From positions 2,542,001-2,606,000 of the forward strand of contig OZ374559.1 of the NCBI GenBank assembly GCA_977862235.1: DNA of 64,000 nt, read 5' to 3'. Both the position numbers and the translations under genes were made by a program. The notes beneath the pieces are model-generated. The model made no database searches. It saw nothing but the letters and a program-made list of their open reading frames with translations, and had not been told where the DNA came from. Position 1 is the stretch's first letter. Each line of letters starts with the position of its first letter. Of this stretch, positions 467 to 43,944 are shown piece by piece. The DNA comes from Dudresnaya verticillata. Lineage: Eukaryota.

Positions 467-2773
467 ATGGCGCAGTTCAATGGCCTAAAAGTGGCTGCGC
501 TTTCGGCGGCGCCGGTGTATCCGTCGCCCTTCGACTTTGCCGGGAGGACTCCCCGCAACGATGCGCGATTATTCTCGCGGGCCCCCTGGTTCGACCAGGA
601 GGCCCTGCGACACGAGGACCTCATCACCCATTACGCTGTGAGCGGATTTCTGCCAGGGGAGTTGCCCCTGGCCGTCGTTTGGACGAACGAGTGGCGCCAT
701 CGGTGCGCCATTCCGAGGGGTTGGCTGCGTATTGCCGCCGGTCAGACGCGTGCAGATGCGCATGCGCGTTTCGTCGTTGACGTGTATCGGCGGTTTACCC
801 GCTATCCGGGGTCGGTATTGACGCCCACCGTCTTTGCATTTGACGCAGGGCAGTACTGCACAAATGGCGAAGTTGGGTATGGGGACCTTCTTGGGACGTT
901 GTCATTAAGCCATGTGGCTGTTTCGGCTGAGCCGCGGGTGCTTCAGGAGGCTAACCTCCTTGGTGTACGCTTGAAAGCGGATTTCCGATACTTGCATAGG
1001 ACGGGCACCTTCTATTGGGAGTGCTGCGTCCGTTGGGAGTGCGAAACGCGCCGCCGCAGAGGCGCTTTTGTGCCGTATCAAGATACGCAAGTCGATCGCA
1101 TTGAGCGGGAAAAGTTGCCGCATTGCTTCATTCGCGTCCCGCCGTTGTGGTGGGACTTTGAGGTCTGCGAGGGCTTTGCGGCTGAGTTGCCCCCGTGTGT
1201 CACGTATATTGGCTCCGAGTTGCGGACGGATCCGTACTCCCGATGTTGGATCGTATTTTTCACCGAGTGGGTCATCAACGTAACTTACGCATGGATGTGG
1301 GAAGTGTATGACACCTTCCGGCTATATTATGTGCCGCCACGCGTAGTCAGCCTCCTTGGTGGGCTTGACTTGACCGAAGTGCTGGGCGGTGCCAGGAACT
1401 GTCAAGAGTTCTGGGATCTACGCCATGTGGCGGATAACGTCAACTGGGACGACCCGGCTGCTGTGCCGCCGGGAAACAGGCGCCGTAAGGCAAACTGTCC
1501 GCGTTACGCGATGAGTAGGAATCATTCCGCCTGTGGCGATTGGGTATGGTACAAACCGTGGACCAAACGTCTTACGACGGAGAACATCGCTGAGAGCCAT
1601 CGTCGTATGGACCGCTTCACGCCAGCGAATCACCCACGTGGGTTGCGCAAGAATTGCGACTTTGCGGGGGACTTCCCACCCCACTTGAGCGCCTTGATGG
1701 CGGAGGAGGATGCGTTCCACGCTAGCAGCGGACCGGTTAACCCGTCTGGGACGGACGTCATTACGCCTATGGCGGTTGAGCTTACTGCCGGGGTGACAGC
1801 TCCCGCGACGATTTCGCCAGCCGTGGTAGGACCGTCGGCTGTGGTGCCTGTTGGCTTGCCGTCGGTTGTGCCGTTGGATCTCTCGGCGCCCGTCAATGAC
1901 GGTGATGGTGATGTCATCATTTCTGCGCCCGTGGCGAGTTCTGCGTCTGCAGTTACGCCTCAAGGCGGCTTGTCCAACGTCGCTGACGGTGCGAATCGCC
2001 CTCCTGCAGTGCCAGAATGGACTGAGGAGCAGCGCCGCACGGTGCTCGCATTCTTGCGAGCCACCGGTGTCGTCACTGAAGGGTCTGGTGGGTCATCCAC
2101 GACGCCCCTCGGGCATTCGCTGCTGGCTGCTCTGAAGCCCATCGTTGCTGCGGTTCCGGCGTCGACCGTCGTTGCGACTGTGCCGTCTAACGAAGAAGGT
2201 GCGGCGTCTAATGACGGAGTGGCGAAAAAGCCTTTGTCGCCTAAGGCGGGTTGTGCGGGTTCATCCGCCATTGCGTCCACTGACGTTGCTAACAAAATTC
2301 CGCCAAAGACGAGTGCGGTGGTAGCGCCTACGGCGGTTCCGCAGGCTCCAGTGGCCTCTTCGTCGGTGTCGGATGTTGATCGTTCAACGCCTTTGGCGGT
2401 TAATGCGGTCCCGTCACTGGAGATGCCGGGGCCGTCGACTTCGCCCAAGGCGGTTGAGGATGCTCCGCCGCCAAAGGCGAGTGAGATTCCTGGTGTAGCA
2501 TCTAAGGCGGATAATGACTCTAGCGTTGCGCCTATGGCGGTTGACGAACACTCGTCGCCTAAGGCTGATTGTGAGCCAGGTGCGTCGCCAGCGGCGGATG
2601 TCGCGGCTTCGATGGCAGTGGCTGTGGCGGGTCCCTTGCGGTCCGTCCCTGCCCCTGCTGCAAGCGCACCGTCGGTGAGGGAAGACGACCTCTACGAAGA
2701 GGCGTCAAGAGAATCCGCCAATGGTGTCGGGGATGATGCCCCATCTGGGCCGTCTGCGACGGAAAAGCCGTAG
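467..2773 (+). CDS. Antisense accessory ORF of Gypsy-A (~768 aa, unknown function; Trp/Tyr-rich N-terminal half, Ala/Pro/Ser/Val-rich tail)
   Basis: Uninterrupted ORF (TTG 446, first ATG 467), antisense to pol and 3' of integrase. TATATAT at ~263 and AATAAA at 2958. Shares motifs with 41668-43944 and 8060-10692. Confidence 0.8.
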   Translation: MAQFNGLKVAALSAAPVYPSPFDFAGRTPRNDARLFSRAPWFDQEALRHEDLITHYAVSGFLPGELPLAVVWTNEWRHRCAIPRGWLRIAAGQTRADAHARFVVDVYRRFTRYPGSVLTPTVFAFDAGQYCTNGEVGYGDLLGTLSLSHVAVSAEPRVLQEANLLGVRLKADFRYLHRTGTFYWECCVRWECETRRRRGAFVPYQDTQVDRIEREKLPHCFIRVPPLWWDFEVCEGFAAELPPCVTYIGSELRTDPYSRCWIVFFTEWVINVTYAWMWEVYDTFRLYYVPPRVVSLLGGLDLTEVLGGARNCQEFWDLRHVADNVNWDDPAAVPPGNRRRKANCPRYAMSRNHSACGDWVWYKPWTKRLTTENIAESHRRMDRFTPANHPRGLRKNCDFAGDFPPHLSALMAEEDAFHASSGPVNPSGTDVITPMAVELTAGVTAPATISPAVVGPSAVVPVGLPSVVPLDLSAPVNDGDGDVIISAPVASSASAVTPQGGLSNVADGANRPPAVPEWTEEQRRTVLAFLRATGVVTEGSGGSSTTPLGHSLLAALKPIVAAVPASTVVATVPSNEEGAASNDGVAKKPLSPKAGCAGSSAIASTDVANKIPPKTSAVVAPTAVPQAPVASSSVSDVDRSTPLAVNAVPSLEMPGPSTSPKAVEDAPPPKASEIPGVASKADNDSSVAPMAVDEHSSPKADCEPGASPAADVAASMAVAVAGPLRSVPAPAASAPSVREDDLYEEASRESANGVGDDAPSGPSATEKP

Positions 2774-3975: not shown

Positions 3976-5769
3976 TTACCCGCGCTGCGCGTCGTCGATG
4001 TTTGGCGGCAATCGCGTGTGCTTCTGACGATGATACCGCACAACGTGCGATCGCGGTAGACTGGACATTGGTTCTCAGGTATTCGCTGAAGCGGGGTATC
4101 CAAACCACTTGACGCGGTAGAGGATCTCGCCGTCTTCCGCGTGTGCGTGCGACTCGATGCGTTCAATAACGTATTCTTTCCCGCTCACAGCGATCGGCTT
4201 GGATGTGGGCCCTTCCAGTGCCATTGGCGGTTCGTCTCGTTGCGTGATGGGCGTCTTCACCGGTTCTGCAAACCGTACTCGACGAGTCGATCGCCTAAGG
4301 CGCTGGGTCGGTGCCCCGAGCGCTTGCGTAGCGGGTTGTGGTTCGTCGCTTTTGTATACGGGTTCCCCGCTCCTAACGGCGTCCTTCGCGTTAGCGCGGT
4401 CTTCCTCATCGTCAGTCGATGCGCTCGAAGCGGGACCTACCGTAGTAGCTGGCGAAGCCGAGGTTGCGTGTTCCATTCGCGTACGGATGCCTGGACCCTC
4501 CTCCTCGTCGGAGACGGATTGCGATACACCGTCGTCGGGGTTAGCGGCGAAGGGCGAGAGCTCTGCTAACCCGCGACTTCGCGGCGTTGCATTCATTCGC
4601 TCCTGCGAGTCGTCCGTGCTTCGCGGTGTCCCTGTGCCTCCTGCCGGGTCCGCCTGTGGCCTGTCTGGGGTTCCTGCTCCTTCGTCGGTTGACGTGGGGG
4701 AAGTGGGCCCCGGCACGCGAGGTGGTCCCGGTGGTTGCACGGTTGCGGGGGCGGTGTGCCCTGGTGGGGTTGGCGCCCATACCACGCGGTCCCGGGATAA
4801 ACGTTCGCGTTCTCCGCGTCCCTTGTCGACAGTGACTGTCCCGTCGTCGACGTGAGTGACTCGATACGGTCCATCCGCCACAGGCGCGAGCTTGTGCTTG
4901 CGCTCTGAGCGATCGGTGCTCCCGCCGCGGGCGAAGTAATCCTTCCGCACGAATGCAAAGTCGCCCACAGCGATGTTCTCCTTCGATTTCCTCAGAAGAT
5001 TATCGAAGTTCCGTTTGTAACGCGCCTGCGTTTTCGCGAGCGACGCTTTAGCGGTTCCCATCAATGCGGACAGCCAGGTTCGCCATTTGGTGTAGAACTG
5101 TCCGGCAGTGGGCACGCTTTCAAGCGACGGCTCCGCTTCCAGCAACAATGGCCGTGGGGGCTTAGATAGCACCAGCTCGAATGGAGCGAGGTGGGTAGAC
5201 GAGTGCAGTTGCGTATTATACGCGAACGTCAGAGCATCGGTGAACAAATTTCAGTCCCTGGGGTGTTCTGCTACGTAGTGACGCAGAGAGGCGAGGATGG
5301 TTCGATTGAATCGTTCCACTTGGCCGTTACACTGCGGATGGTACGTAGTAGTGAAGATATTCTCCACCCCTAATATGCGGCAGACGTCCTGGAACAACTT
5401 GGCTACAAATTGGGGCCCATTGTCGGACAGCAGCTTCTTGGGTGGGCCATACACAAACACCCAGTGTCGAACAAATGCCTGAGCGATTTCCAATGCCGTA
5501 ATCTTACGTAAGGGGACCGTCCGGACCAGCTTCGAGAAGCGGTCCACGATGACGAGTAGGAACTTATTCCTCCGCTTAGTGCGTATGAGCTCCCCGAGTA
5601 TATCGATGGACACAAACTCGAGAGGGTCGGTTTCTGGGAACAGTTTCATCTCCTTCACGTTCTTTCGCATCAGTACCCGGTTCTTCGCGCAAGTAACGCA
5701 ATTGCGGACGGTCGCGTAACAATCCACCGACATAGACGGCCAATAATACTCGCGTCGAAGCGTATGGTA
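3976..5769 (-). pseudogene. Gypsy-A integrase core plus C-terminal chromodomain (two nonsense codons)
   Basis: CxxC of the zinc finger (CVTC) and the DDE motifs SIDILG, SDNGPQF and NGQVERFN. GPY motif (ADGPYRV). Chromodomain EYVIERI..YRVKWFGY..NT*EP. TGA replaces Trp at 5251 and 4075. Confidence 0.92.
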
Positions 5770-5786
5770 CACTACAAGGCCATTTC
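5770..5786 (+). repeat. Left terminal inverted repeat of the CACTA element
   Basis: CACTACAAGGCCATTTC, exact reverse complement of 25079-25095. Confidence 0.95.
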
Positions 5787-8059: not shown

Positions 8060-10692
8060 TCAATGCTTCTTTGCTACACCACCCTTACTTCCCGAACCCT
8101 TCGCAGCTCCGGAACCGGCACTACTCTTACCACATTCAGCAACATGACCAGATCCCTCCAGTACCGCGCGCATTTCCGCGTCCATGGTGGGTGGGTGCCG
8201 GCTCATTACGCTATTGGAGCCCGGGTTGGCTGCCGACGCATGCTCCGCAATACCTGCGTTCGGTTCCGACGTCTGCTGGGACACAGCCCCATCCCTGTGA
8301 GATATCTTATTCGGACGTGAATCACCGCTCCGGGTCTGAAAGCCATTAACTGCTGCACTGCTGGGTCCGGCGTTCGCCTCAATCCCAACTGTGCTCGACG
8401 AACCCTTAAGAGGGCGCTTTCCTGCCGCGATTGCTTCTATATTATTGGCAATGCTGCCAGGCATCGGCACTTCGGGGATGGCCACTGCCTGCGTTCTTCT
8501 GTTCGGTTGAAATGGGCTGTCTATTCGTCGAATAGGAGTGCCCGGTCGAGGCGTGCGGGTTCCCGTTTCTTTTCTCAGCGGAGTGCCAGGACGCGTACGC
8601 GTGCCACGAGCATCCGGCTCGCGAATGTCAAGCACTGGAAGCTGCTCAGCGGAGCCGGCGGGCTGTTCTCTGGCCGCTGTTGTGCGCTCTTGAATAGCTG
8701 CTTCCCACGGGGGGATTGGCTGCTTATGGACTCTTTCCCCTATAGCAGACTGAGCCATGGCGTTGAAAGGGGTGTGGTGACTGTGACCGCCTCGCCCTCC
8801 TGTGGCACATGGATCTTGATACCCTTGACTTGACGTTTGATATCCTCGGACACCCTCACCGCGTTCGCGACTTGCATACCTGCTCGGTGGAGCCCTAGTA
8901 GTTCCCATATCACCAGCGTACTGGTTGAAATCGAACGATGAGTAGCTTGCCTGGTTGGCAGCTGTACGAGTGCTAGGACCCACGTAATCGCGTTGATTTG
9001 CGTAATGATCCGTGGTGTACACTCGGCGACCGTAACCAGCGCCCCTGTCGTGTTCACGATACGATCCATACTCCAGAGCGGGCTTCTTCGGATACATCAT
9101 CCTGTCGACGATGCCGTAAAGAACCTGCTGCGCCCCCTTTCTGTGTCCTTATGCTCTTTAGCTTTCTGTTCTGCGATCGCATGTTCGTTAGCGTTGACCT
9201 GCATCATGATGTCAAGCACTTGACGTACACTGGGATCACCGTTTGAAAAGTTCCAGTACGCAGTGACGTGGTGACGAAGCCCGCGAATTGCGTCGATATC
9301 GTGTCGGTCCATCTTGCTTTCCAGAGTTGTACTGTCCACGGTGTCATTGACATAACCTTCGGAGAACTCCATCTCATACTCTTCCTCCGTCCAGGTTCTT
9401 CTGGTGATGTAACTGTAGTACGTTGTGGTTCCAGAGTCGCGTACGCGGTCGGCTGTAGGCTCAAAGCCGGGGCCACTCACGGCCCATACAAACTTGCTGA
9501 AGACCGTCTCCTCGTTCACAAATCCGATCCAATTGTGCCAGTCCTTGTGGATTGCCTCTGCCTCATGCATCAGCTTCAGAATGGCGGCTGCCGGTACACC
9601 ACTGATGTCAGACACTTCGCCAAGATTATCATCGAGAACTCTAATTGTGTTTGGGGTGAGGACAAACATCTTCGAACCGTAAACAGCTTCATTAAACCAA
9701 GCCAGCATGAACATGACATAATACTCCATTTGAAGTACGAATAGAAGCCTTCGTGAGCGTTCTGAAAGCGGAGGTCCTGATTCCGAAACCACTTTCTCTG
9801 CACACTGCACAGCATCCCTCAGCTCCGTAAAGAAGTAGTACAAAACTGGTGGCGTGTAAACAGGAAGTGCCGAGGGCTGCTCGATATCCCAAACCCAGTT
9901 CTGGACCTTGGGATAGTACCCAGATAGCACATCGATTGGCAGCATTGACGTCTCAGGGCTGTCATGTGGGAGCCATAGCCTGTACCTATTACGGTTGAAG
10001 TGCTCCCGAAAGAATCCCGGACGCTTGCTGAAGGCGTGGAAGTGCCTTTTAACAAGCGAGTGCTTAAGCATAGGAATATCTTGCGGCACCAAGGCGGCTA
10101 CAGTGAGGCTGGGTGCCTCCCCCGCTATGGCCTCCATGTTGAGATATTCCTCCATGTCCTCGAGGTAGTGGCATTCTTTCGCTTCCCGCGCATGTGTCCG
10201 TGCAGTTCGAAGAGTCGTGGGTACATCAAATAGACGCTTAGCCCGCATGAACTTCGAGAACTCGTTCATGCACTTCTGTACGCCGACCTTTTCGGAAGCC
10301 TTCTTGAACAGAACCATGTCGGTGCGCGCGTTGGTGTTTCCTTGAACAAGATCGCGGTAGCTGTTCGTCTGAGACGGTTCCAGGTTCCACTCATGGTGAC
10401 CGCTGAGATTCTCAGCATCAATACTTGTCACAAGTGACCGTTCTTGGTCACGTCTGCCGTAAGCATATCGGCGATCACGGATGCGGCGTCCCCTTCCCAG
10501 GCCGTGGCGAGTTCTTCCACGATATCCTCCTCTTGAGAACTCATCATATGCTCCACGACCGCTGCCGTGGCTGAAGCCGTTATGAAACTGGTTAGCGTAC
10601 GCGTGACCATGATCGTTTCCATAAGCGTCGCTATTAACATGGGTGTTGCTCGGTCCAGCCCCATCCCCCTGCTGGTACGGGTTACCGGACAT
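8060..10692 (-). CDS. CACTA-borne homolog of the Gypsy antisense-ORF family (ATG 10692; probably one ~870-aa gene with a frameshift near 9135)
   Basis: ORFs 9097-11073 and 8060-9100 overlap, and the second frame reads GAQQVLYGIVDRMMYP across a G run. Core motifs KRPGFF, WDIEQPSALPVYTPPVLYY and EYYVMFMLAWFNE align with the two Gypsy antisense ORFs. RGG-rich N-terminus. Confidence 0.7.
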
Positions 10693-10739
10693 GTCGATAT
10701 CCAAATAGCAGCTAGCGACAGGGGCGACTCGATCGAGTG

Positions 10740-11520
10740 AAGCGGGCAGGCGGGCGAGCGAGGCAGCCCGGTGAGTGGGCACGGCGAATAGTTCAACAGC
10801 AGAAACTGACCAGGACGACGCGAAGCGGGTGGGCGAGGGAGCCCGATAGGCGAGCAAGCGAGCCAGACGAGCGGGCGCGGCGAGTAGAGCATAGCGTGTG
10901 GCGGTAGAAGCGACACGGGCGATGCGAAGCGGGCGGGCAAACGAGCCAACCAGGCGAGTAAGCGAGCCAGGTGAGCGGGCGCGGTGAGTAGAGCACAGCA
11001 GTAGAAAGGATTCAGGCGACGCGAGGCAGGCGGGTGGTGTAGGAAGGTGCGGAACGCAGAATGAAACCAGCACAAGCGCCCACGGCGACGCGAGGCGAGC
11101 AGACTAGCAAGGTAGCCAGGGGAGTGGGCGAGGCAAGAAGTGCAACAGCGAGCAACCAAGGTGACGACAAGCGGGCGGGAGCGCGAGACAGCCAGGCGGG
11201 CGGGCGCAGAGAGTAGTTCACCAGCAGCGAGCGGCCAAGGCGACGCGATCGCGTGAGGCGGGCGGGCGGGCAAGCGAGGCAGCCAGGCGAGTGGGCACGG
11301 CGAATATGTCAACAGCAGAAAGTGGCCAGAGCGACGCGAAGCCGGTGGGCGAGGGAGCCGGATAGGCGAGCAAGCGAGCCAGACGAGTGCACGCGGCGAG
11401 TAGAGCCCAGTAGCAGAAGCGACGCGGGCGATGCGAGGCAGGCGCGCGAGCGACCCAGGCAGGGGAGCAAGCGAGCCAGACGAGCGGACGCGGCGCGTAG
11501 AGCACAGCGGAGATGCGGGA
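10740..11520. repeat. Degenerate GC-rich direct repeats (~520-bp period with internal GCAAGCGAGCCAG subunits)
   Basis: 10773-10890 and 11289-11407 are near copies. The unit (GC)AAGCGAGCCAG recurs at ~10855, 10960, 11370 and 11468. The plus strand is T-poor. Confidence 0.75.
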
Positions 11521-12031
11521 GCAAAGCGGGCGCGTTCGCGATGGCAATGGGAAGAACAGCTACGCAATCCTAGTCGGCGGGTGAGGACGCCGGTCTCGGA
11601 GCGCTGATATCAAGCGTTCGCTGATAATGCCAGAGCCCGAGCGGGCTCGGCCGCCGCGGCCGCGGCGGGCGGCTGCTGCCCAAAGATCCCGCGCGGCGGC
11701 GTGCGCGCGACGGCCACAGGCGCGCACGAGCGCTCGTCAAGGCACTCTTCAGGCCACTGCCGCTTAGATTTGATATGAAATTATATGAAAAAGAGATGTG
11801 CTAGTAAGAGGCCGGTGTTTCCAATACGAGAACACTTGGCCAAATTAGAATGTGTACACAATGAGACGCACCGATTAATCGTTAATTCGTCACGGGGCGA
11901 GTGATCTGGCCAACGCTTTTGACAGAAACCAATAGAACGTACCACACTGGCCCCAACCCGGCGAAAGGCAGACAATTGCCTACGGTTAAGCGTGCGCTGA
12001 TCCCTCCGAGGACCCTACACTAACGTATGTA

Positions 12032-16500: not shown

Positions 16501-17613
16501 AAGTGTTGAGTCGTTGTGTTCAGTGTTCACTGATATTACGCAGCATCTGGATAGGCCGAACCTTCACCGACTTTTGGAACTGTATGAGCATAGCATACCT
16601 GCTTTTGGGCACGTAAGAGAGTTCATGGAGCTCGTTTTTGAGTGCGCACATCAACCTCTGAAAAGATGTATATCTAGAAGCAATCAGAAAGACGCTCACC
16701 TCTCGGCAGTGGAACACTGCCTAGCAAACGACTGGCAGGGGAGAATTATGGCTGTTAGCAATTATGAAAACTCATGCGATCGCTTACAAAAGCGGTATCT
16801 GAGGCGTCTGTTCTATGGTGAAGTTGCTGATCTGCTGAAAGAATCTGAAGAGAAGGAATTAATAGACGAACTTGACTCAACTATTGTGCAGCAATTTACA
16901 AAAGCTTGCCTATGGCAAATGCAGAAGGATGAGCGAGTTTGCAATTTCGCTCTTGATAGAAGCTCAATGTGGGTACCCAGAAATATAACAGATGCAGAGA
17001 GCATAGCCAAAGAAGTCCCAATTTCCGAAGACGACATGATAAGTTTGTTTTCGGAGATGAAGGATTGGCTAAACACCTGGTTTCCTTCTAACCAACGACT
17101 GGAAGAGAGTGGGACAGATCAGTTCCGACTCTACAGCAGTGCGGGAAGGTACAAAATAAGGAACGACGGGTCTGTAGGAGGAAGATCTGCGGGCTATGAT
17201 ACCATCTATGCGGGAACAACTGTACAGACCTATCTGGAACCGGTTATGAGGGAGAGAAAACTAGTTCAGCCCGTTACAAATGGTGGTGGAGAACTCCAAC
17301 TGTTTGCTGTCGTTGCAATTTTACAGCGATATGAAGAGGTCCCTTGGGCAATTTGCGTGCGCTGCCGTATGGAGCAAGGAGGATACGTTCATGTGGAAAA
17401 TCCGTTTCATTCCTCCACAGTCCAACTTTTGCAGCTCCGTCCTGAAATAAGGAGAGTTGCTCTGTACCACGCTTGCGATCAGGAAACGGGAACCCGAACC
17501 AAATGTCGCATTGATGCTGCAAGAAGAGTGGTATTGCATACCAAGACCCTGCTTGAGGGGGAAGGATGCGTTTTCAAAGGAGACTGAATGGGTACCCACC
17601 CCGATTGGCCTGA
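13567..17613 (+). pseudogene. CACTA/EnSpm (Tnp2/Plavaka-like) DDE transposase split by about three frameshifts
   Basis: ORFs 13567-14241, 14217-15452 and 15407-17587 overlap. CMC-type motifs: LLFCDDF, FIGDYPA, GH...PCTLC, APDHLLTG and HRLLE...FGH....ELVFECAHQPLK. A probable terminal GYPPRLA* ends at 17613. Confidence 0.85.
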
Positions 17614-17652
17614 GGGTGCAACGTTTTTATGGAGAGATGGAGCCCTCCAGAA

Positions 17653-30715: not shown

Positions 30716-30717
30716 GT

Positions 30718-32827: not shown

Positions 32828-33628
32828 TGTGGCAGTATGGACGCTGTCAGCAGAAGGGCTTACATGAGCGCCTTCCTTTTCGCGGGACAGGCTGTCCCTT
32901 AATCAGGACAGCTGTCCTTTCATCGCTGTACACGTGGATGACACGTGGAATACGCGTGTGTACACGTGGACTTACAACTGTACACGTGGCGTACACGTGG
33001 CATTGTAATGACGCCAGTTGGACACCCCGTATTGGCTGATTTATGACGCGCCGCTGCGCTCCTACTCACGGATGAGGAGCACCTCTGCGCTCAGGTTATC
33101 GACAGTGCAGCCGGGACCTCGGCTTGCGCACCGGCGCATCCGCCGCCAAGTCCCCTAACTGGAATGCATTCCCACTTTTGACTTGTAAAGACATTACTAA
33201 CCTTTGTATCTATAATCACAGACTAACTTAGACCCCCTTTCGGGCTGATAGACTTTTCGGCTGTCAAGCCCTACTTATGGGGCCCGGAATAGCCGGCGCC
33301 CTCAGAATAAACACTCAGCGGAGTTGTTCGGGAAGTTTCCACCTTTTGGTCGCTCGGACGCTCCGCGCCTGCAGGGGTCGCCCAGTACAGGCCCGGACAT
33401 CGTACGACCAGTACTCTACGAAACACCGGGTCGCAACCTCTATACTTTCCTTCAGTCGGTCGCGCCGAGTCTTTACCGTGCTTCCGCACCCCCCCTTTCG
33501 GGTCATCAGGGCCCGCCTTTTCCAAGCCTCTACCAATCCTCCCTCGAGCTACCACCAATTAGCGTGTGACGACGGACAGCTGTCTTTTCTTGTTCTTTGC
33601 TGTTTCTGGCCGCTGCCATACTGCTACA
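32828..33628 (+). repeat. 5' LTR of Gypsy-B
   Basis: TGTGGCAGTATGG...CCATACTGCTACA termini. Direct repeat of 44767-45567, with three substitutions seen by eye. Confidence 0.97.
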
Positions 33629-33629
33629 G

Positions 33630-33927: not shown

Positions 33928-36726
33928 ATGCCTACATCAAATGGCGAAACCACGCGACCTGGCCTCACCGGCCGTCGCACAACCAGCCGGACGGCGAGCT
34001 TATCTTCCGTCCGGCTGACCGGGGTGACCACCCGTGCAACTACGGCAGCAACCGCCTTAGTTCGCAGCCCCTCAGCGGGTACCCTGGGACGTCCTCCCCG
34101 TGACCAAGCGGGAAGCGTCCCTGAAGAAATGGAGTTATCGGCTCGGATAGCTCAAGAAGAATTGCCCGGCTCCGGCGGAGACCGGGCCTTGAACGAAGAA
34201 GAACGGGTTGCAACCCTTACCCCTCGAGTTGGAGCGAGTACGAAAGTCTCGAGTGAAAGTATGGATCGCAATCCCAGAACGCGTGACGCTACGGGCATGT
34301 TGCCACCATCGGTAAACACCCTTGGGTTCACTCCGACCGAGTCAAGCCTTCCCCCGGACATTGGGATGCCTATCCGGACGAAGGCCAATTCTTCCGACGA
34401 ACGGTGCTTCACAGAGCGAGAGATCGGAAGGATGATCCAAGATGGCATAGAACGGACAGTCGGTCCCGAGCTGGCAGCAGCTTTAGAAGTCCAGGTGGAC
34501 GAGCCACTCTCGAGAATCAAAAGATATATCGATGAGTCGGCCGTTCGCCAGAATGGAGAAGTACTGACCAGATTTCAAGAGGAGATAACATCCCGAATCC
34601 GTCTTGGGAACCCCGGCATCCCGCAAGAGGAAGGACTCGCGACGCTTCGCGTTCGAGTTAATTTGCTGGTCGAGCGTGTCGAGGAAGTCCACGACACAAT
34701 GGGAACGCTTTCCCGAGAAGTTGACCAGTCGAGGAACGACGCCCTTGTGGCACTAAGAGGCGTTGATCATAACGCAGACGGCGCACGATGCGCCGATCAG
34801 AATCAAGCCATCGAGCTCCTCCGTAAGGAAATCGATGAAGAAAGGCGAAGAGTCGCGACGTTGGATGCTCGCGTCAGGCGACTGATGCGTGAACGGGATG
34901 AATCCCCTGAAATCCAGAGACGTCGGTCCCCTGTTCCGCGAGGGACACGCGACCGACGTCGACTCTCGCCGCATCGGGATGGAAGAAGGGGTGACGACCC
35001 GTACCATCGCGAGGAGAGGTATCCTCCTAGACAGCCGGACACTCACAGTCAGTGCCCCTGCAGTACCAGACATGGCGATAACCCATGTATGGGACGAAGT
35101 CGAAGTGGATACCGGGACGGCTCCCCGTCACGAGATTATCGGTCGCGACCCGCAACGCCGCAGGGCCGACAAGTGGACAGCCAGCAACGGCAGTCTTCAC
35201 ATCGTGACGCCGAGCCGGAGGGTACATACGGAGCGGACTCCCGAAGCCTACCAAGGTCTTCTTGGATAGGACCACGCCGGTCAGGCCTCAAGGAGTTGGT
35301 ACCACGGAACCCAGCGTTCGCTAACGTCCTTTCGTATCGACGATACCGGTTGTTAAACCTTGACCCGTATAGGGGACCCGAGGTAACGGAATCGACGTCC
35401 CGAAAGATTAAGCGAGTCAAGTCCGTGATGCGTAGTCGACGCTTCGATGGTAGTGACCCGGTATCGATAATCGGCTTCCTAGCCACGCTGAAGTGTCAAT
35501 TAGACCAAGCGCATGTCAGCGAGGGAGCCGCGATCCTTGTGATACCGGAGTTTCTCGAGAAGGACGCCAAAGATCTCTTCGAGGCAAACTTCGACGTCGC
35601 GGGCGACGATAATGGGGGATTCGCCGAATGGCCGGAGGCAGTGAACTACTTACTGCGAAGCTTCGCGAAGGACGTGTACATCGAACGCATAGCTGCCGAG
35701 ATGGACCGCATGTCCCAGGAGCCCGATGAGGATGAGGTATCCTTCTCAAGGAGGCTCCAGAATAACGCGCGAAGGGTCGCCGGAGTGTACTCGGAGCAGG
35801 ACCTCATCACACGGTTCATCCGAGGGTTGCTACCCGCAGTCAAGCCATTGCTGAGTACCACCTCACTGGACCCGGCAACGGCCCGACTCGCGGACTACGT
35901 GGAGCTAGCTACCGCCCAAGGTGATTCCCACCGCGCGCTCGTCGGAGCCAGTCGAAGGAAGGAGAAGTCCTCCGGGCTGCTGCCCCGTAAGAAATTGGCA
36001 ACCCGTGCCGCCCCTGGCAAGTCGAGCAGAACTCTGCTGGTTCGACAAGGGCAACCGGTCTCCCGGGTAACATCACACTCCTATTCGGATAATGACTCTT
36101 CGAGTAGTGACTCAGATGCCAACGGGAAGGCAGTTGCCGCATTCGAACGCGACGCAGGGCCGTCCTCGGTGTCACCGACAGATACATGGTCCGGAGAGCC
36201 TAGTGAGGGCAGAAGCCGTTATGACGCAGTTCAAGCGGTTCTGTCTAACCAAAATCCAAGGCTCCCCGCATGGGCACAACCATCCAAGGCACAACGCCCC
36301 GGATGGGTAACAGTCGATGATCTCCCGAACGATATTTGCTTTGAGTGCTTTGGTGTGGGCCATAAGAAGCCCAACTGCCCTCATTTAGGTCGTACGGACG
36401 ATTTGGAATTTGCTACGCTGATGCGCCAGAATTACTATGCGCTGTCGCGGCAACAAAAAGACTGGCTCGCCGTCGTAGGCCGTCTCCCGAATTTCGCCAA
36501 GAAATCTCCTCCTCCAACCTGGACAGGGCCAGACAACACCGGAAGGCCGGGAAATCAATTCCATCCAAATCGCCAAGTGAATTTCAAGGCGGGATTGAAC
36601 CACCCGATCGACAGGCCGCGGCCTCACTCTCCGAGATCACCTCGCATGGGCGGACGCCCTTTTCCGCCACCACCCCCTTTACCACAATCCCCGGCTAGCA
36701 AGCCCGGCCCACAGCCGAAAAACTAG
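33928..36726 (+). CDS. gag: Gypsy-B Gag (~932 aa)
   Basis: Intact ORF with a coiled coil, a capsid-like region and the zinc knuckle CFECFGVGHKKPNC. Confidence 0.9.
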   Translation: MPTSNGETTRPGLTGRRTTSRTASLSSVRLTGVTTRATTAATALVRSPSAGTLGRPPRDQAGSVPEEMELSARIAQEELPGSGGDRALNEEERVATLTPRVGASTKVSSESMDRNPRTRDATGMLPPSVNTLGFTPTESSLPPDIGMPIRTKANSSDERCFTEREIGRMIQDGIERTVGPELAAALEVQVDEPLSRIKRYIDESAVRQNGEVLTRFQEEITSRIRLGNPGIPQEEGLATLRVRVNLLVERVEEVHDTMGTLSREVDQSRNDALVALRGVDHNADGARCADQNQAIELLRKEIDEERRRVATLDARVRRLMRERDESPEIQRRRSPVPRGTRDRRRLSPHRDGRRGDDPYHREERYPPRQPDTHSQCPCSTRHGDNPCMGRSRSGYRDGSPSRDYRSRPATPQGRQVDSQQRQSSHRDAEPEGTYGADSRSLPRSSWIGPRRSGLKELVPRNPAFANVLSYRRYRLLNLDPYRGPEVTESTSRKIKRVKSVMRSRRFDGSDPVSIIGFLATLKCQLDQAHVSEGAAILVIPEFLEKDAKDLFEANFDVAGDDNGGFAEWPEAVNYLLRSFAKDVYIERIAAEMDRMSQEPDEDEVSFSRRLQNNARRVAGVYSEQDLITRFIRGLLPAVKPLLSTTSLDPATARLADYVELATAQGDSHRALVGASRRKEKSSGLLPRKKLATRAAPGKSSRTLLVRQGQPVSRVTSHSYSDNDSSSSDSDANGKAVAAFERDAGPSSVSPTDTWSGEPSEGRSRYDAVQAVLSNQNPRLPAWAQPSKAQRPGWVTVDDLPNDICFECFGVGHKKPNCPHLGRTDDLEFATLMRQNYYALSRQQKDWLAVVGRLPNFAKKSPPPTWTGPDNTGRPGNQFHPNRQVNFKAGLNHPIDRPRPHSPRSPRMGGRPFPPPPPLPQSPASKPGPQPKN

Positions 36727-39700
36727 TCAGGGGGGACTGGGGTTCCACCCCGGAGCCCCCCGATCATACGAAAACTGAGGGTAGCAACCCGCTTGGCGCT
36801 TTGCCAACTCCCGGTTCATCGGAACGGTCGGATGTCGAGACCCCTCTCGGTCTACCCAAGCAGGTATTAGCTCGCCCGATTGGCCTCCCTCCAGGGCGTA
36901 CGTTCGAAGAGTATTGTAGGAATCCCGTATGCGCGCTGTCACGCTACAATTATAAAGTGGCTGCGGCCGTCGGGACTTCCACTGAAAAACTCACTCGCGT
37001 ATTATCCGTACTGGATTCTGGAGCAGGTCCCAACCTCATCAGAGCTGATGTCCTGTCGAAGGAAGAATTGAAGAAGGTGTCGACTTCACGACCAATCTGT
37101 AATCTAGTGTCGGCCAGCCGGCACAAACTAACTACCCTGGGAAGTATCTCTCTCCTGGTCCGGATTGGAAATTACACGGTACGTCAACCATTTGTTGTTG
37201 CACACGCGCTAGCGGTCGACATGATTCTCGGATGTACCTTTATCGATAATCACGTCGACACGCTGCGCGTGCGCAACCAAACGGTGATACTCCGTGACGG
37301 GTCGGAACACCCCATTCTAAGACGCCAATGTGGTCCACTCCGTCCCGACAGACCAACCGAAACTACGGAGATACCTCCTCGCCCCGTGCAGCGGCATATC
37401 CGCATCGCTCACGCTATTCTACTACCTCCGGAATCGGAAACCTGGGTTGCGGTTACATGCCCAGCCCAGGGTACCCACTTCATGGATGCATTCCAACCTT
37501 TATACAAAACACAAGGAGTCGTCCTGTCCAACGGCATCGCCGAGATCACACCGAACCGCCTGTTCCATGTCAAGGTTGCGAATTTTTGGCGGAACGCCCA
37601 ACAGCTCACGAAGCGCCAACGACTTGGCCGCGCGATACCCGCGCCTTCTAGCACGCCGGTGTACGCTTTGTCCTTTGGGAACACCCCGTCTCTCGCGCCC
37701 GACACGGCCTCGCATCCCGAGTCATTCTCCAATGTGGGGGGGCAGGGCTTGCTGCTGCGATACAACAGTCGTCAACGACGCCCGGCGTGACGGAAGCGGT
37801 GAAAGCGATAACAATCGACGATTTGGACTTAAAACACCTACAGGTCGAGGATCAAAAGCGCGTTTAAGCAAGATGCTTAAGCCATTTGCCCCTATGTGGA
37901 GTGGCCAACTCGGAACGATTAAGGTAACGGAACACCGTATAGAACTCAAGGAAGGGTCGACACCCGTGTTTACCCAACCGTACCGCGCTGGTCCAAAGGC
38001 CAGACAGGCGGAACAAGAGGAAGTGGAGAAGATGCTCCGTGAAGGCGTTATAGAGCCCGCCCGTTCGGAGTATGCAAGCCCCGTGGTCTTAGTCAAAAAG
38101 CCCGACGGCTCGTTACGCTTCTGCGTGGATTACCGTAAGCTGAACGCCATCACCATTAAGGATTCCTATCCACTTCCACGAATGGACGAATGTCTCGATT
38201 CCTTGGGCGACGCCCAGCTGTTTACGACTCTGGATTGTAATTCAGGATATTGGCAGATCCCAGTATGTCCACAGGACCAGCACAAGACTGCCTTCACATG
38301 TCATGCGGGATGCTTCCAGTTCAAGCGAATGCCATTCGGGCTGTGTAACGCCCCCGCGACGTTTCAGCGTACAGTCGGTATCCTACTCTCAGGCTTCAGG
38401 TGGAAAACCTGCTTGGTCTACCTAGACGACATAATTATCTTCTCGAAGAACGTCGACGAACACCTTACCCACGTACGGGAGATACTCACTATCCTGAATG
38501 ATGCTGGCGTCTCGCTGAAACTGCGGAAGTGTAACTTCTTTACTAAGAGTGTCGACTATCTCGGACATGTGATTCGTCCCGGTCTCCTAGAGGTTGCGAC
38601 CAAGAACACTCAAGCAATAGAGGGGTTCACAGAACCACGAACGCAGACGCAACTGAGATCCTTTCTGGGACTATGTAATGTCTACCGACGGTTCGTCCCG
38701 AATTTTGCGCGAGTTGCCGCACCTCTCAATGCCTTTCTACAGAAAGATGTGGAGTTTGATCTACCGCCCTTCGGCAAAAAGGAAACGGAAGCTTTCGAGC
38801 TGTTGAAACGCGCGCTGATCGCCCCACCTATCCTACAACTGCCAAAGCTGGGAAGTAATCTCTCGGTCGACACCGACGCTTGTGAATATCAAGTAGGTTG
38901 TGCACTCATGCAGATGAACGACAAGGGGGAAAGACATCCCATTGGTTTCTGGAGTCGTCGGCTGACGCCCGCTGAGAAGAACTATTCCGTCGGAGAGAAA
39001 GAATGCCTCGCCGTCGTATGGGCCGTGCAGATATTACGTCCATACTTGGAGAGAACGCATTTCGATTTGTACACCGATCATCAAGCACTGAAGTGGATTA
39101 TGAGCATGACCGACGCATCGGGACGCCTAGCGAGATGGCGCTTACGCTTACTCGAGTACGACTTTACAGTCCAATACAAGAAGGGTAAGAAGAACCAAAT
39201 AGCAGACGCTGTCTCACGCCTCCCCACCTATGGCTATACGAGCCGCGAGCCGGATCTGGACATCCCGTGCTATATCATCGAGGATGACACCTCTGAAAAC
39301 ACTACTCCCCCCTCATGGGCTAATGGTCCAATCGAAGCGTGGGAGATCGAGCCCTGTGACGAGCCTACGTCTGCAGACGAGTTGTTAGTGGCGACCGCCG
39401 AGAAGGATGTGGATGAGAAATCACTGTCACTCTTAACTATTGAGGAGCTCCTCTGAGAACAGAAAACAGATCCCTTCTGCCTGCGGATTAGAGCAGGAAT
39501 CGAGGGTGGCCGACCCGGTTGTTACCTCGAAGACGAGTTAGGACTGCTTGTCTGGAAAGCGCCTATTGATGGCGCAAAGCAGGTGCTCATACCCGAAACG
39601 CTACAAGAGCGAGTATTACACCTCGCTCATTACCCCGTAATGGCCGGACATCCAGGCGGCACGCGCATGTATCAAAATTTGCGACGTCAGGTATATTGGC

Positions 39701-41019
39701 CAGACATGGCATTAGCGGTTTATGCAACTGTACGCAACTGCGTGGCCTGTTCCAGGGAGCGAGTACAACTGCGGAAGCACACTTCGTTTATGAAGTTATT
39801 CCCGGCCACTATGCCTCTCGAATTCGTGGGTATCGACATATTGGGGCCGCTTCCCCGTTCAGGCAAAGGTAATGAGTACCTACTCGTTATTACAGATCGC
39901 TTCTCTAAGCTTACCAGGGCGGTCCCGTTGAAGACCATCACGGCTTACACAGTGGCGAAAGCCTTTTGTGACCATTGGGTCTACGTGTATGGACCGCCAC
40001 GATATCTACTCTTGGATAACGGATCCCAATTCGCATCAAAGTTCTTTATGGAAGTGTGTAGCATTCTGCGGATCCGCAATCTATTTACGTCAACTTACCA
40101 CCCCCAGTCGAACGGGCAAACGGAACGCTTCAACCGCACTCTTCTGGCTGGATTACGTCACTTCATCGCTGAGGATCAGACCGATTGGGATGAGTTTACC
40201 CCCGCGTTGACATACGCCTATAACACAACTGTCCATAAGGCAACTGGGTTCGCCCCTGTAGATCTCGTTCTGTCGAACCCCCCTAACTCCATCCTAATGG
40301 AGCGAGCCGAGACGGTCGATGTGGCAAATGTGCCTGCTACCAATGCCAAGAAGCGTTTAACTCGCCGACTCGAAAAACTAGTGGAAACGGCTCTCCCTCG
40401 CTTACGCTTGGCGCAGAAGCGTTATGAAGTCAACTTCAATAATAGGATGCGTCCCGCTAATGAGAAAATACGACCTGGACAGTGGGTATTTGTCCAGCGA
40501 GAGACAAAGCTCAAAGACGCTGACGGCGTGGCACGCGAAGGCAAACTGCTACGAAAGGCATTGGGCCCGTATAAGGTTGTTGAGAGGAGCACTCATGTGG
40601 TCGTGATAGACGTGAAGGGTGAACGCGAGACGATCTCGCTAGATCGCGTAACGCTGGCGCCCACGCCGCACGAGTCGTTAGACGCCCAAGGGGAGACTCC
40701 GACAATAGTCGCGCCGCCTGCGCCAGGGTCTACCTTGGCCAGTCGTGGCGGCGAGCCCCCTCTTCCTCCAATCGAGCCTCCGCGCTCTTTCTCTCGCTTA
40801 CGCAAAACCCCGGCTCGAGAGCACGTATATGATCGCATCGTTGACTACGGCCCGCTGGAACAGCTATATCGGATACGTTGGTATCAGGCCCCCGCCACCA
40901 AGGACACGTGGGAGCCAAGGGGAAACCTCCCCCATAATCTCGTAGCGCGCTACCACCGCGCAAAGGGAATACCTTACGAATCAGGTGGGTTGCAACCCCT
41001 CGGGCTGTTGCCCTACTGA
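36720..41019 (+). pseudogene. pol: Gypsy-B Pol (PR-RT-RNase H-INT-chromodomain), entered by a -1 frameshift; one internal frameshift (~37740-37860) and a TGA at 39454
   Basis: VLDSGA, YLDD, DTDAC/EKECLAV/TDH, HHCC, DILG/LDNGSQF/GQTERFN, LGPY and chromodomain YDRIVD...YRIRWY....DTWEP. Confidence 0.93.
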
Positions 41020-41667: not shown

Positions 41668-43944
41668 TCAGTCCGAGTCAGAGTCCATCAGGTCGATGAA
41701 CTCGTTCGGCCGCAACGGCGGATTCGCAACGGGACCTTGCCCCGGCACCATAGTCACGCGACGGACCTCGCGCACGATGCGACGACCGCGTCCGCGCCGA
41801 GCCCCGACTCCCCTCGCCGGAACTTCACCACCCGCCTCGCTAGGCCCAGCACCTCCATCGCCAGACGGCGCGTCACCCTCCTGGAGCCCCATATCCTCTT
41901 CCTCGAGCTCCTCCTTGAGCAGCAGCTCCGTCTTCACGATAACTTCCTGTGGCTCGGCCGCTGCCGGAGGAGCTTCGACGGCGTCAGCAGGAAGAGTCAC
42001 CTCGAGCTGTAGGCCATGGCCGGCGGGCACTTCGGGCACGGGTAGGTTGACCGTCACTTCCATGGGTGAAGCAGGCGGAGCACTCTCATCGGGGGCCCCT
42101 AGTGCCGGTTGGGAAGCTGCAGTAACTGGAACATTGGTCGGCGGACCCGAGGTAGCAAGAGAAGAGCTCTCACGCGGAACAGCGGATGTATCGGCAAGCG
42201 TGCCTTGGCGCGGATCCGCGTTCTGCCCACTACCACCTGGAGCCACAGGAGCAACCGCACTTGGCAGCAAGCTAACGCGGCCTTGATGACCCAAACCCAG
42301 ACGGGAACGGCGCGCAAGTCGCGGATCTCTCGAGACGGAAGCGGAGCCTGACGCGCTCGGCGCGCTCACCGCTGCTGAAGGACCCGGCGCCACGACCCCT
42401 GATGGAGCCTCCTGAGCTTGCTCCGACTCCACGACGGCCTGCTGCCCGATAGGCGGAAGCACGGCCAAAGAAGCCTTCAACGCCTCAATCGGCCCAGGTG
42501 AGCTCACCCAATTGGCTTCATAGTCGCAGAGGACATCCTCGACCCAGTCAGCCAGACTGAAGAGCGTTAAGTTGGTCACCTCCCAATGGACTGCCAAGCG
42601 AATAGCGAACCCCCGCCGATTGAACAAGTCACGAATAGCGGCATCGGCCCTCGCGACGTTTCGCAACCTTGGCGCGTACGGCCCTTGCGGCTGCCCCGAC
42701 ACAGTAACATCCATTGGCGGCACGTCAGCCGGAGTTGCTGGGCCTTCGCTCGGAGCGCTCTGCCAATCCTTGGTGTAACCAGTCATCCGGACGCCCACAT
42801 CCACGAGAAACGTCTCACCATTGCCGGGCTGCGCCTGCAGTAAGTATTCCGGAAGGAGAGGGTGCCACTCGGCCGCGTCGAAATCGACCCAATCGCCTCG
42901 GTCGAACACCGGCGTAATCAAGCCGGTGTTCTCCGGCAAATAGCGGTTCCGCTTACTAACTCGACTCCAGCGGACTCGCTCAACAAAGACGAGGAGCGCC
43001 TCCAAATCGGCGGCATCGTCAGCATTAGCCGTAAGCGGGCCGACGCCAAGTCCACGGATCTCCCCACGCAGGCGGGCGTTAATGTAATACAAGTAGCCAC
43101 GCCGGGCCTCGTACATGAACGTCTGGGCGACCATAACCACCCACTCATTCCGGAATATCATCCACAGGACCCCTTGATGATAACTTTCGTTCATCATGTC
43201 GAGACCCCGATACGCCAAGACTGGCGGATTGCCAACGGGCAGGGAGTAGGAGACTTCGTAATCACGATGGTCCGTTGGGACCGGGACGTACTTCCCCGTG
43301 TAGAACTCGGGCTTGATCGCCACTACCTCCTGACAGTGCGCCGGCACGAAACACCCCGTCCGATGACGATGACGACGCTCGAAGCGGAGAAGGTCGCGAG
43401 GCATCGCCGTATGGGGGTTATCCAGGGTATACTTGAAATTGGAAGTATCGTCCCAACGCGTGACGCGCGCCATGGTATAGGGATAGTTATCCAGTCCGGG
43501 GCGAGTGAGGGGCCTCTCGAAGCTGACTACCTCTAGGCTGTAACCGCCCTTAGACTGAAACACCCGGAGCTCATCCCAGAATTCCACATACATCTGGGAA
43601 TGGTGCTCCACGTAGCGGTGCTCATGTTGGTAGCGCACCAAGGCCAAATCCCAATGTTGGCTAGTTGGCAACGGCGGCAGCCCGATGTTGGTCCCACGCA
43701 GGATGTCAAGGCGGTCGCGCATATTGAGCTCCCACGTACGGGCTTGCGCTTGACGACGGCCGAAACGGCGGATGTCCTCGCGACGGGCGCCGGCCGTTCC
43801 CTTGATGTGGGACAAGTCGGTCCGTACTAACCAGTCGCGGCTACGCGTGATGACCAGCGGCACCCCCGCCGCATCGACGGTGAAACCCTGCACTGCAGTG
43901 CTCGACCCGGCTTGTCCGTGCGCAATGTTCGGATAGCTCGCCAT
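41668..43944 (-). CDS. Antisense accessory ORF of Gypsy-B (758 aa, unknown function)
   Basis: Intact ATG-started ORF between integrase and the PPT, antisense to gag-pol, homologous to 467-2773. Confidence 0.85.
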   Translation of the reverse strand: MASYPNIAHGQAGSSTAVQGFTVDAAGVPLVITRSRDWLVRTDLSHIKGTAGARREDIRRFGRRQAQARTWELNMRDRLDILRGTNIGLPPLPTSQHWDLALVRYQHEHRYVEHHSQMYVEFWDELRVFQSKGGYSLEVVSFERPLTRPGLDNYPYTMARVTRWDDTSNFKYTLDNPHTAMPRDLLRFERRHRHRTGCFVPAHCQEVVAIKPEFYTGKYVPVPTDHRDYEVSYSLPVGNPPVLAYRGLDMMNESYHQGVLWMIFRNEWVVMVAQTFMYEARRGYLYYINARLRGEIRGLGVGPLTANADDAADLEALLVFVERVRWSRVSKRNRYLPENTGLITPVFDRGDWVDFDAAEWHPLLPEYLLQAQPGNGETFLVDVGVRMTGYTKDWQSAPSEGPATPADVPPMDVTVSGQPQGPYAPRLRNVARADAAIRDLFNRRGFAIRLAVHWEVTNLTLFSLADWVEDVLCDYEANWVSSPGPIEALKASLAVLPPIGQQAVVESEQAQEAPSGVVAPGPSAAVSAPSASGSASVSRDPRLARRSRLGLGHQGRVSLLPSAVAPVAPGGSGQNADPRQGTLADTSAVPRESSSLATSGPPTNVPVTAASQPALGAPDESAPPASPMEVTVNLPVPEVPAGHGLQLEVTLPADAVEAPPAAAEPQEVIVKTELLLKEELEEEDMGLQEGDAPSGDGGAGPSEAGGEVPARGVGARRGRGRRIVREVRRVTMVPGQGPVANPPLRPNEFIDLMDSDSD

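What the first reader, a model, noticed from the sequence alone, without database searches (positions are those of the whole stretch)
467..43944. One unrecognised protein family is carried by two Gypsy retrotransposons and a CACTA DNA transposon
Seen: three ORFs (467-2773 +, 8060-10692 -, 41668-43944 -) share collinear motifs. These are YLHRTGTFY / RHRTGCFV / SKRPGFF; then RVPPLWWDFEVCEGFAAELPPCVTY / PVPTDHRDYEVSYSLPVGNPPVLAY / PKVQNWVWDIEQPSALPVYTPPVLYY; then FFTEWVINVTYAWMWEVYDTFRLYYV / IFRNEWVVMVAQTFMYEARRGYLYYI / LQMEYYVMFMLAWFNEAVYGSKMFVL; then NVNW / RVRW / KDW and DWVW / DWVD / FVW. Each has a long disordered tail. I recognise no known domain. Known analogies are the antisense extra ORFs of plant Tat/Retand elements and the VANC anti-silencing proteins of VANDAL elements. 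Inference: this is a mobile accessory gene exchanged between class I and class II elements, possibly an anti-silencing or trans-activating factor.
Basis: partly seen in the sequence, partly recalled or inferred. Interest (0 to 1): 0.9.

Follow-up and report, generated by a model that had tools for sequence, protein, structure and literature searches.

The report
Accessory gene shared across transposon classes
One unnamed protein family is carried as an extra gene by two retrotransposons and, in a distant form, beside the transposase of a likely DNA transposon in what is likely a red seaweed, and it likely helps these unrelated jumping genes stay switched on against the host's silencing.

Summary
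Largely confirmed. ORFs 467-2773 (A) and 41668-43944 (C) are homologous (E 4e-14). They lie antisense to the pol of two chromodomain Ty3/Gypsy elements; C lies between pol and the 3' LTR of a complete young one. '8060-10692' is two frames: 9097-10692 (B, holds the core) and a tail. B is a remote member: E 3e-12 against a profile without B-like rows, HH probability 98%. The family has 475 clusters at 50% identity, no Pfam match in the 150 listed, and a confident mainly helical model of about 300 aa. B belongs to a deep subfamily. No Gypsy remnant surrounds it. Two B-like proteins share exact contig lengths with close relatives of the neighbouring EnSpm/CACTA-like transposase, so the pairing likely recurs. 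Element ends were not found. The sharing is ancient; direction unknown. Likely role: a trans-acting factor that keeps its own element expressed (inferred, about 0.4); an enzyme is the main rival. Precedents in kind exist (plant PMD/MAIN/VANC, red-algal Plavaka PAG genes). No sequence tie to PMD/VANC was found; identity of B with PAG1 could not be tested.

The parts
1..466 (+). 5' leader of ORF A with short repeated motifs (13-16 nt, 4 copies each) and a TATA-like site near 263
   Evidence: 37 repeated 10-mers against 0.5 expected, 0 of 500 shuffles; TATA-like site
467..2773 (+). ORF A, 768 aa: conserved core (about nt 791-1651) plus low-complexity tail; antisense to the pol of Gypsy element A
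   Evidence: AlphaFold2 model of aa 52-410, pLDDT 93, pTM 0.91
4021..5781 (-). Integrase and chromodomain of Gypsy element A; the rest of pol is absent, and the PPT and 3' LTR would lie left of the window
   Evidence: Pfam rve E 4e-14, Chromo E 1e-4 below cut-off; tblastn
8060..9148 (-). Second frame downstream of B; probably B's low-complexity tail after a frame break
   Evidence: relatives P0098/P0127/P0144/P0116 run on as one ORF with a coiled coil and tail
9097..10692 (-). ORF B, 531 aa: divergent subfamily of the same domain, head-to-head with the transposase
10690..11540 (.). Degenerate tandem array (unit about 90-100 nt, 7-11 motif copies) directly upstream of B
   Evidence: 185 repeated 10-mers against 6.9 expected, 0 of 500 shuffles
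13567..17587 (+). EnSpm/CACTA-like DDE transposase, split over three frames (relatives are single ORFs of about 1240-1300 aa)
   Evidence: 56 homologues; invariant D-x-F, D, CxxC, PDH, HRxxE, ExxH; class label from recalled motifs, no Pfam hit
17653..17714 (.). 62-nt near-perfect palindrome between converging ORFs
17794..20302 (-). Further frameshifted ORF set, probable accessory gene of the same DNA transposon
   Evidence: no Pfam match at E 0.001
21480..23076 (+). Further frameshifted ORF set, possible accessory gene of the same DNA transposon
   Evidence: no Pfam match at E 0.001
32828..33629 (+). 5' LTR of Gypsy element C (802 bp), followed by a PBS at 33630; 5-bp target-site duplication GCATC
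33928..41019 (+). gag, protease, RT-RNaseH, integrase and chromodomain of element C (one frame change and one stop within pol)
41668..43944 (-). ORF C, 758 aa, antisense between pol and the PPT
44475..44504 (-). CCAAT-like and TATA-like boxes about 540 nt upstream of ORF C: candidate internal antisense promoter
   Evidence: motif match only, not shown to function
44767..45568 (+). 3' LTR of element C, 3 mismatches in 802 bp against the 5' LTR, preceded by a purine tract

Best explanation
The three ORFs encode one family of transposon accessory proteins, carried antisense by chromodomain Gypsy retrotransposons and, as an anciently diverged subfamily, beside the transposase of a likely EnSpm/CACTA-type DNA transposon, and the protein likely acts in trans to keep its own element expressed against host silencing. 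Shown: homology of A, B and C; Gypsy position antisense between pol and the PPT (element C, L001); a conserved core of about 300 aa with variable low-complexity tails; very wide divergence around a few near-invariant residues. Strongly inferred: B belongs to the DNA transposon. Inferred: the gene has its own promoter, the core recognises element-specific repeats or the chromatin on them, and the tail recruits host factors, in the way VANC proteins act for VANDAL elements. Because Gypsy and EnSpm share no transposition machinery, the target is more likely something host-side that both face (chromatin, transcription, small RNA) than gag, integrase or transposase.
For: Homology. Family size: 475 clusters at E<=0.001, 195 at 1e-10; of the 150 listed, 107 A-like, 39 C-like, 4 B-like. 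Gypsy context: elements A and C; L001 has the homologue antisense, inside PPT-LTR-PBS-gag; L002 has a decayed homologue antisense to an RT/RNaseH remnant. That is 2 of 2 loci fetched. DNA-transposon context: no gag/pol/LTR remnant at 5.8-24.9 kb. 2 of 9 B-like proteins (both of those on contigs over 10 kb) share exact contig lengths, 23367 and 11317, with members of transposase clusters close to the window's; 0 of 36 A/C-like proteins do; expected by chance 0.08, P about 0.003. Near-invariant R131/E135/Y138, E191/R195, Y247, E267 in A numbering (86-97%; A itself has C at 131) are kept in the B subfamily. Repeat arrays lie upstream of A and B and in LTR C, as VANC targets are tandem repeats (PMC5735166, passages). 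PMD is shared by Gypsy and MULE elements and its host forms act in silencing (PMC5418596, passages).
Against: There are no expression, localisation, binding or activity data. The core is not net basic (K+R 12.3%, D+E 12.9%), which is no support for DNA binding. No significant repeat array lies upstream of C (83 of 500 shuffles reach it), and only two-copy matches occur in L001. No TIR/TSD encloses B and the transposase. B's GC3 (0.58) is nearer the Gypsy ORFs (0.57-0.67) than the other ORFs of the element (0.42-0.48). The contig-length match is indirect: the DNA was not seen. Context is known for only 4 A/C-type copies. The hits came from a profile that included B, which biases the 128-row test slightly; the A+C-only test is free of this. 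The B model used an alignment dominated by A/C-like rows, so its agreement with A is partly circular.
Confidence: 0.42

Rival explanations
1. The core is an enzyme. The Arg/Glu/Tyr cluster kept in both subfamilies is an active site that modifies DNA, RNA, a nucleotide signal or a histone mark, and it may serve anti-silencing chemically, as proposed for the SET/methylase and oxygenase cargo of red-algal Plavaka elements.
For: Five charged and two Tyr positions stay near-invariant across proteins under 50% identical and across the deep B split. The core is net neutral. Plavaka cargo genes are predicted enzymes (bioRxiv 10.1101/2025.02.11.637652, section 8 read).
Against: The pairs lie i,i+4 on predicted helices and could be structural salt bridges. 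There is no invariant His in the B subfamily. A itself lacks two of the conserved Arg.
Confidence: 0.22
2. It acts on RNA: a suppressor of small-RNA silencing, or an export/stabilising factor for element transcripts, like viral accessory proteins.
For: The core is Arg- and aromatic-rich (R 10.5%, W 3.7%, Y 4.4%). A host-side RNA pathway would be common to both TE classes. Retroviral antisense regulators are raised as analogies for Retand TRP28 (PMC11963269, discussion read).
Against: No RNA-binding family match. A non-specific suppressor would need less family-by-family divergence than seen.
Confidence: 0.15
3. It is a brake or addiction factor: it limits copy number of its own element, or makes loss or silencing of the element costly.
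For: Antisense placement with a candidate promoter of its own allows expression when gag-pol is off. ORF C is intact in a young element whose pol has two breaks.
Against: No partner gene or toxin-like family match. There is no positive evidence.
Confidence: 0.1
4. B is not part of the DNA transposon. It is a separate insertion or an old Gypsy fragment next to it, so the family is Gypsy-only.
For: No termini found. Higher GC in 8060-11700 than in the transposase region.
Against: No Gypsy remnant nearby. B-like proteins form their own clade, SH-aLRT 100 in a quick tree. Two exact contig-length matches with the closest transposase clusters.
Confidence: 0.08

Closest known systems
Plant mobile domain (PMD, PF10536; MAIN/MAIL1) and VANC anti-silencing proteins of VANDAL MULEs (PMC5418596, PMC5735166, PMC13547354; passages read)
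   Same: An accessory domain found in Gypsy elements and in DNA transposons; conserved core plus variable regions; tandem repeats in the element. VANC is reported to be structurally related to MAIN.
   Different: No Pfam match at E<=0.001 in any of the 150 listed members; PMD, DUF1985 and DUF287 do not appear even at E<=1 in the 60 rows of A10. The class II carrier here is EnSpm-like, not MULE. No host member is known here, and no activity is shown.
Plavaka accessory genes PAG1-3 of red-algal giant EnSpm/Plavaka elements (bioRxiv 10.1101/2025.02.11.637652; abstract, sections 8 and 28, passages read; supplements closed)
   Same: A large EnSpm-type element with several accessory ORFs, one beside a tandem array. 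PAGs are reported to move among TE families. PAG1 has no known domain.
   Different: No methylase/SET (PAG2) match in this element. B has no invariant His and no beta-sandwich in its confident core, so it is not PAG3-like. The text read names no LTR carrier.
Antisense pol-3'LTR ORFs of Retand/Tat elements, TRP28 (PMC11963269; abstract and discussion read)
   Same: Antisense ORF between pol and the 3' LTR, often with tandem repeats, function unknown.
   Different: Retand is non-chromoviral and angiosperm, and TRP28 was not matched. This family is in chromodomain elements and has a class II subfamily.
Giant En/Spm families of Chondrus crispus, 16-20 kb with 4-5 ORFs (as cited in PMC6431247; one passage read)
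   Same: About 15 kb or more with four ORF units around an EnSpm-like transposase (8060-23076).
Shared ORF3s of bdelloid LTR and Penelope-like retroelements (PMC5408684; abstract only)
   Same: The same accessory ORF type is found in unrelated mobile elements.
   Different: Those are known enzymes and are shared among retroelements only.

Membership tests
Chromodomain Ty3/Gypsy LTR retrotransposon (element C) | Two LTRs with TG...CA ends, target-site duplication, PBS and PPT | tested here: met
   802-bp LTRs at 99.6%, 5-bp TSD, PBS at 33630, purine tract before 44767
Chromodomain Ty3/Gypsy LTR retrotransposon (element C) | gag, PR-RT-RH-INT order | tested here: met
   Pfam Retrotrans_gag, RVT_1, RT_RNaseH, rve in order; protease region by tblastn to related elements
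Chromodomain Ty3/Gypsy LTR retrotransposon (elements A, C) | Chromodomain at the integrase C-terminus | tested here: met
   PF00385 E 1e-4 and 5e-4, both below the gathering score
EnSpm/CACTA (CMC) DNA transposon | DDE transposase with CxxC and His motifs in the insertion domain | tested here: met
   Invariant D27, D84, C134/C137, P241-D242-H243, H405, E409, E430, H433 in 28 rows; assignment of these motifs to CMC is recalled, not from a call
EnSpm/CACTA (CMC) DNA transposon | Match to Pfam transposase models (Transposase_21, Plavaka) | tested here: not met
   No such hit for the window ORFs or 12 relatives
EnSpm/CACTA (CMC) DNA transposon | CAC/CCC-type terminal inverted repeats with 2-3 bp TSD | tested here: inconclusive
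   No convincing pair in two scans; the copy is decayed and no other copy is held
Complete Plavaka element with PAG1-3 cassette | PAG2: DNA methylase plus SET domain near the transposase | tested here: not met
   No PF01555/PF00856 hit in the ORFs scanned between 6.3 and 24.5 kb; not all short frames were scanned
PAG3 (ParB-like plus 2OG oxygenase) | Metal-binding His triad and double-stranded beta-helix | tested here: not met
   No invariant His in 7 B-family rows; confident part of the B model is helical; residues 343-431 are low confidence
PAG1 | Sequence homology to Bostrychia PAG1 | not testable with these tools
PMD/MAIN/VANC | PF10536, DUF1985 or DUF287 sequence match | tested here: not met
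   0 of 150 listed hits at E<=0.001; not listed at E<=1 for 60 rows
PMD/MAIN/VANC | Shared three-dimensional fold | tested here: inconclusive
   Whether a VANC/MAIN structure is in the libraries searched is unknown; the VANC21 structure paper is not held
PMD/MAIN/VANC | Sequence-specific binding to element repeats and loss of silencing marks | not testable with these tools
   Needs ChIP/EMSA and expression tests
Retand TRP28 antisense ORF | TRP28 domain in a non-chromoviral Tat/Retand element | tested here: not met
   No such Pfam hit; carriers have chromodomains

The most novel reading that the evidence does not exclude
A large, ancient protein family with a new fold is the shared anti-silencing factor of red-algal mobile elements. 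Hundreds of chromoviral Gypsy lineages and a giant EnSpm lineage each carry their own version, which recognises element-specific repeats or acts enzymatically on host chromatin. It would be an independent red-algal counterpart of the plant PMD/VANC system that crosses the class I/class II divide.
Probability: 0.3. Interest if true: 0.88.

Novelty: new variant of a known kind. Interest (0 to 1): 0.72.

Why it matters
Few transposon-encoded counter-silencing proteins are known, and the function of antisense ORFs in Gypsy elements is an open question. This family is large (475 clusters), has a confident model and a short list of invariant residues, and is kept by two unrelated transposon classes. 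That points to a host-side target and gives direct tests: which residues to mutate, which repeats to probe. If it is anti-silencing, it would help explain transposon-driven genome growth in seaweeds and could supply many natural sequence-specific chromatin regulators.

Tried and rejected
No whole genome is held, so copy number, dN/dS and the host-gene test were not run. Sequencing runs: none was listed for 7800-17600; no RNA holder listed, which is no evidence on expression. Word-indexed protein searches with A and B found nothing; the full HMMER scan did. The protein atlas gave no result. PDB sequence search: best E 0.48 (UHRF1 chain 6vee_A), not significant; none for the transposase profile. 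Fold searches: Foldseek found 0 matches at E<=0.001 in PDB and BFVD for the A model; VIA-align best Z 2.1 (rmsd 5.5, 108 aligned) for A and 3.5 (rmsd 3.8, 107 aligned) for B among 48,161 chains. A missing match shows neither that the folds differ nor that the fold is new. PHROGs and NCBIfam: nothing but coiled-coil noise in 13 proteins. Locus scans for B-like genes (metagenome, viral, genome contigs), for A/C-like genes in viral contigs and for the transposase found no relatives. TIR scans were negative; the CACTG pair 11945/21196 has no TSD and was rejected. A nested Gypsy fragment around B was rejected. A SUMO-interaction-like motif in the tails occurs in only 3 of 65 and was rejected as a family feature. 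Literature searches that found no description of this family. Repbase (1181 C. crispus families, PMC4455052 passage), subscription journals and the Bostrychia supplements were not visible and may already hold these ORFs. No complex prediction was run.
Full report
Observation. ORF A (467-2773 +, 768 aa) and ORF C (41668-43944 -, 758 aa) are intact. A and C align at 27% over 160 aa, E 4e-14, far above 1000 shuffles. B is marginal pairwise (E 0.004-0.03). With an HMM from A and C alone it is the best non-self hit among 686 six-frame segments (E 0.001) and beats all 1000 shuffles of itself.

The family. A profile of the three cores found 475 clusters at 50% identity with E<=0.001, 195 at 1e-10 and 25 at 1e-30; only the best 150 were listed. 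By best pairwise score, 107 are A-like, 39 C-like and 4 B-like. An HMM from 128 A/C-like cores (cut from 148 rows; 20 dropped as too short; no B-like row) scores B at E 3e-12, 42 bits against at most 7.7 in 1000 shuffles. It scores the four B-like proteins at 5e-16 to 3e-5. Profile against profile gives probability 98.3%, E 1.6e-14 over 244 columns. One caveat: the rows were collected with a profile that contained B. None of the 150 has a Pfam match at E<=0.001 (54, 96), and none resembles the gag, pol or transposase queries. None of 45 members of 20 clusters looked up carries a name; their sources are ENA, Logan and JGI. The core is about 300 aa with near-invariant D126, R131, E135, Y138, E191, R192, R195, E232, Y247, W261, E267 in A numbering (86-97%). 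R131, E135, Y138, E191, R195, P242, Y247 and E267 are also kept in B. Tails are A/S/G/P-rich and variable. AlphaFold2 gives a confident, mostly helical model of A residues 52-410 (pLDDT 93, pTM 0.91). B's core has the same order of helices at high confidence, from an alignment dominated by A/C-like rows. Fold-library results are told under Tried and rejected.

Gypsy context. Element C is complete: 802-bp LTRs with three mismatches, a 5-bp target-site duplication, PBS, gag, PR-RT-RH-INT, chromodomain and purine tract. ORF C lies antisense between pol and the purine tract, with CCAAT- and TATA-like boxes about 540 nt upstream (motif match only). ORF A lies antisense to the integrase-chromodomain of a truncated element. 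Both loci fetched from metagenomes agree. In L001 (JAAUYE010037022.1) the homologue is antisense just inside PPT-LTR-PBS-gag, which I read as a collapsed or tandem LTR. In L002 a decayed homologue is antisense to an RT/RNaseH remnant. Context is thus known for four A/C-type copies only.

DNA-transposon context. B is head-to-head with a frameshifted ORF set at 13567-17587, whose 56 relatives include single ORFs of about 1240-1300 aa. They keep D-x-F, a second Asp, CxxC, PDH, HRxxE and ExxH. From recalled motif knowledge this is an EnSpm/CACTA-type DDE transposase; Pfam does not name it. Two more broken ORF sets follow (17794-20302 -, 21480-23076 +). The result is a four-gene block of 15 kb or more, like the 16-20 kb En/Spm families with 4-5 ORFs cited for Chondrus crispus (PMC6431247, one passage). 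No termini were found. No gag, pol or LTR remnant lies between 5.8 and 24.9 kb. The strongest outside evidence is indirect. B-like P0164 and transposase P0232 are each on an ENA contig of 23367 bp, and B-like P0166 and transposase P0244 each on one of 11317 bp. These transposases belong to clusters 45% and 52% identical to the window's. I examined 10 of the 56 transposase clusters at member level, and I did not see the contigs' DNA. Against inclusion of B: its GC3 is 0.58 while the other ORFs of the block have 0.42-0.48.

History. In a quick tree of 56 rows (50 of 98 long A/C-like cores, B, four B-like, the L001 protein), the five B-type proteins form one side of a long branch, SH-aLRT 100; A, C and L001 fall on the other. 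The tree is unrooted. The sharing is old and its direction is unknown; it is not a recent capture from a Gypsy like A or C.

Host. No call names the organism. A florideophyte red alga is my inference from the giant multi-ORF EnSpm-like block and recalled features of such genomes.

Mechanism. Nothing here shows activity. The two carriers share no transposition proteins, so a host-side target is the simpler reading. Repeats far above shuffled controls lie directly upstream of A and B and in LTR C, but not upstream of C. VANC proteins bind motifs in tandem repeats of their own element and have conserved domains with variable regions (PMC5735166, passages). The plant mobile domain is carried by Gypsy and MULE elements and its host forms act in silencing (PMC5418596, passages); VANC is reported to resemble MAIN in structure (PMC13547354, passages). 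I therefore favour a trans-acting factor that keeps its own element expressed (0.42). The neutral core and the invariant Arg/Glu/Tyr set leave an enzyme open (0.22), which could serve the same end. RNA-level action (0.15), a brake or addiction role (0.10) and a Gypsy-only family (0.08) are the other rivals.

Relation to known systems. It works like the Retand antisense ORFs in position (PMC11963269, abstract and discussion) and like PMD/VANC in distribution, but matches neither by sequence. Red-algal Plavaka elements carry three accessory genes said to move among TE families (bioRxiv 10.1101/2025.02.11.637652, sections 8 and 28 and passages). Searches found no description of this family. Earlier scan notes held no look-alike sequence.

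Verdict. This is a real, large family without a Pfam name, shared by class I and very probably class II elements. It is a new variant of a known kind of accessory gene; the function is inferred only. Interest 0.72.

Noticed in passing
window 48605-50179, 56609-58435, 62867-63892 (+): Three intronless ORFs made of tandem 87-aa units, each with a PG_binding_1 peptidoglycan-binding domain and CxxC linkers (6 and 7 Pfam stretches in the first two; the third was not scanned). A bacterial-type binding module amplified in a eukaryote.
   Followed up: no
window 24969-31631 (-): A third Gypsy element (D) with a 913-bp 5' LTR, the same PBS as element C, gag and RT-RNaseH, cut off before integrase, so its accessory region is missing.
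   Followed up: partly
window 6031-7219 (+): Frameshifted SAM-dependent methyltransferase (Methyltransf_28) gene copy wedged between element A and ORF B.
   Followed up: no
window 45809-47733: 1.9-kb element with about 114-bp terminal inverted repeats at 93% and no ORF of 150 aa or more: a non-autonomous DNA transposon.
   Followed up: no
window 52126-53121 (+): E2F/DP-family transcription factor ORF between the peptidoglycan-binding repeat genes.
   Followed up: no
window 32927-33001 and its copy in the 3' LTR: Clustered copies of a CACGTG-containing motif in the LTR of element C, a likely host transcription-factor site array.
   Followed up: no
window 33630, 30715; L001 3320: Three divergent Gypsy elements share nearly the same PBS sequence; the primer tRNA was not identified.
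   Followed up: no
window 17794-20302 (-) and 21480-23076 (+): Two further broken accessory ORF sets of the DNA transposon with no Pfam match; the pieces tested also had no PHROG or NCBIfam match. Either could be PAG1 or a TnpA-like gene.
   Followed up: partly
P0212: A relative of this transposase is labelled as a protein of a Chlamydiota MAG, probably eukaryotic contamination of that bin.
   Followed up: no
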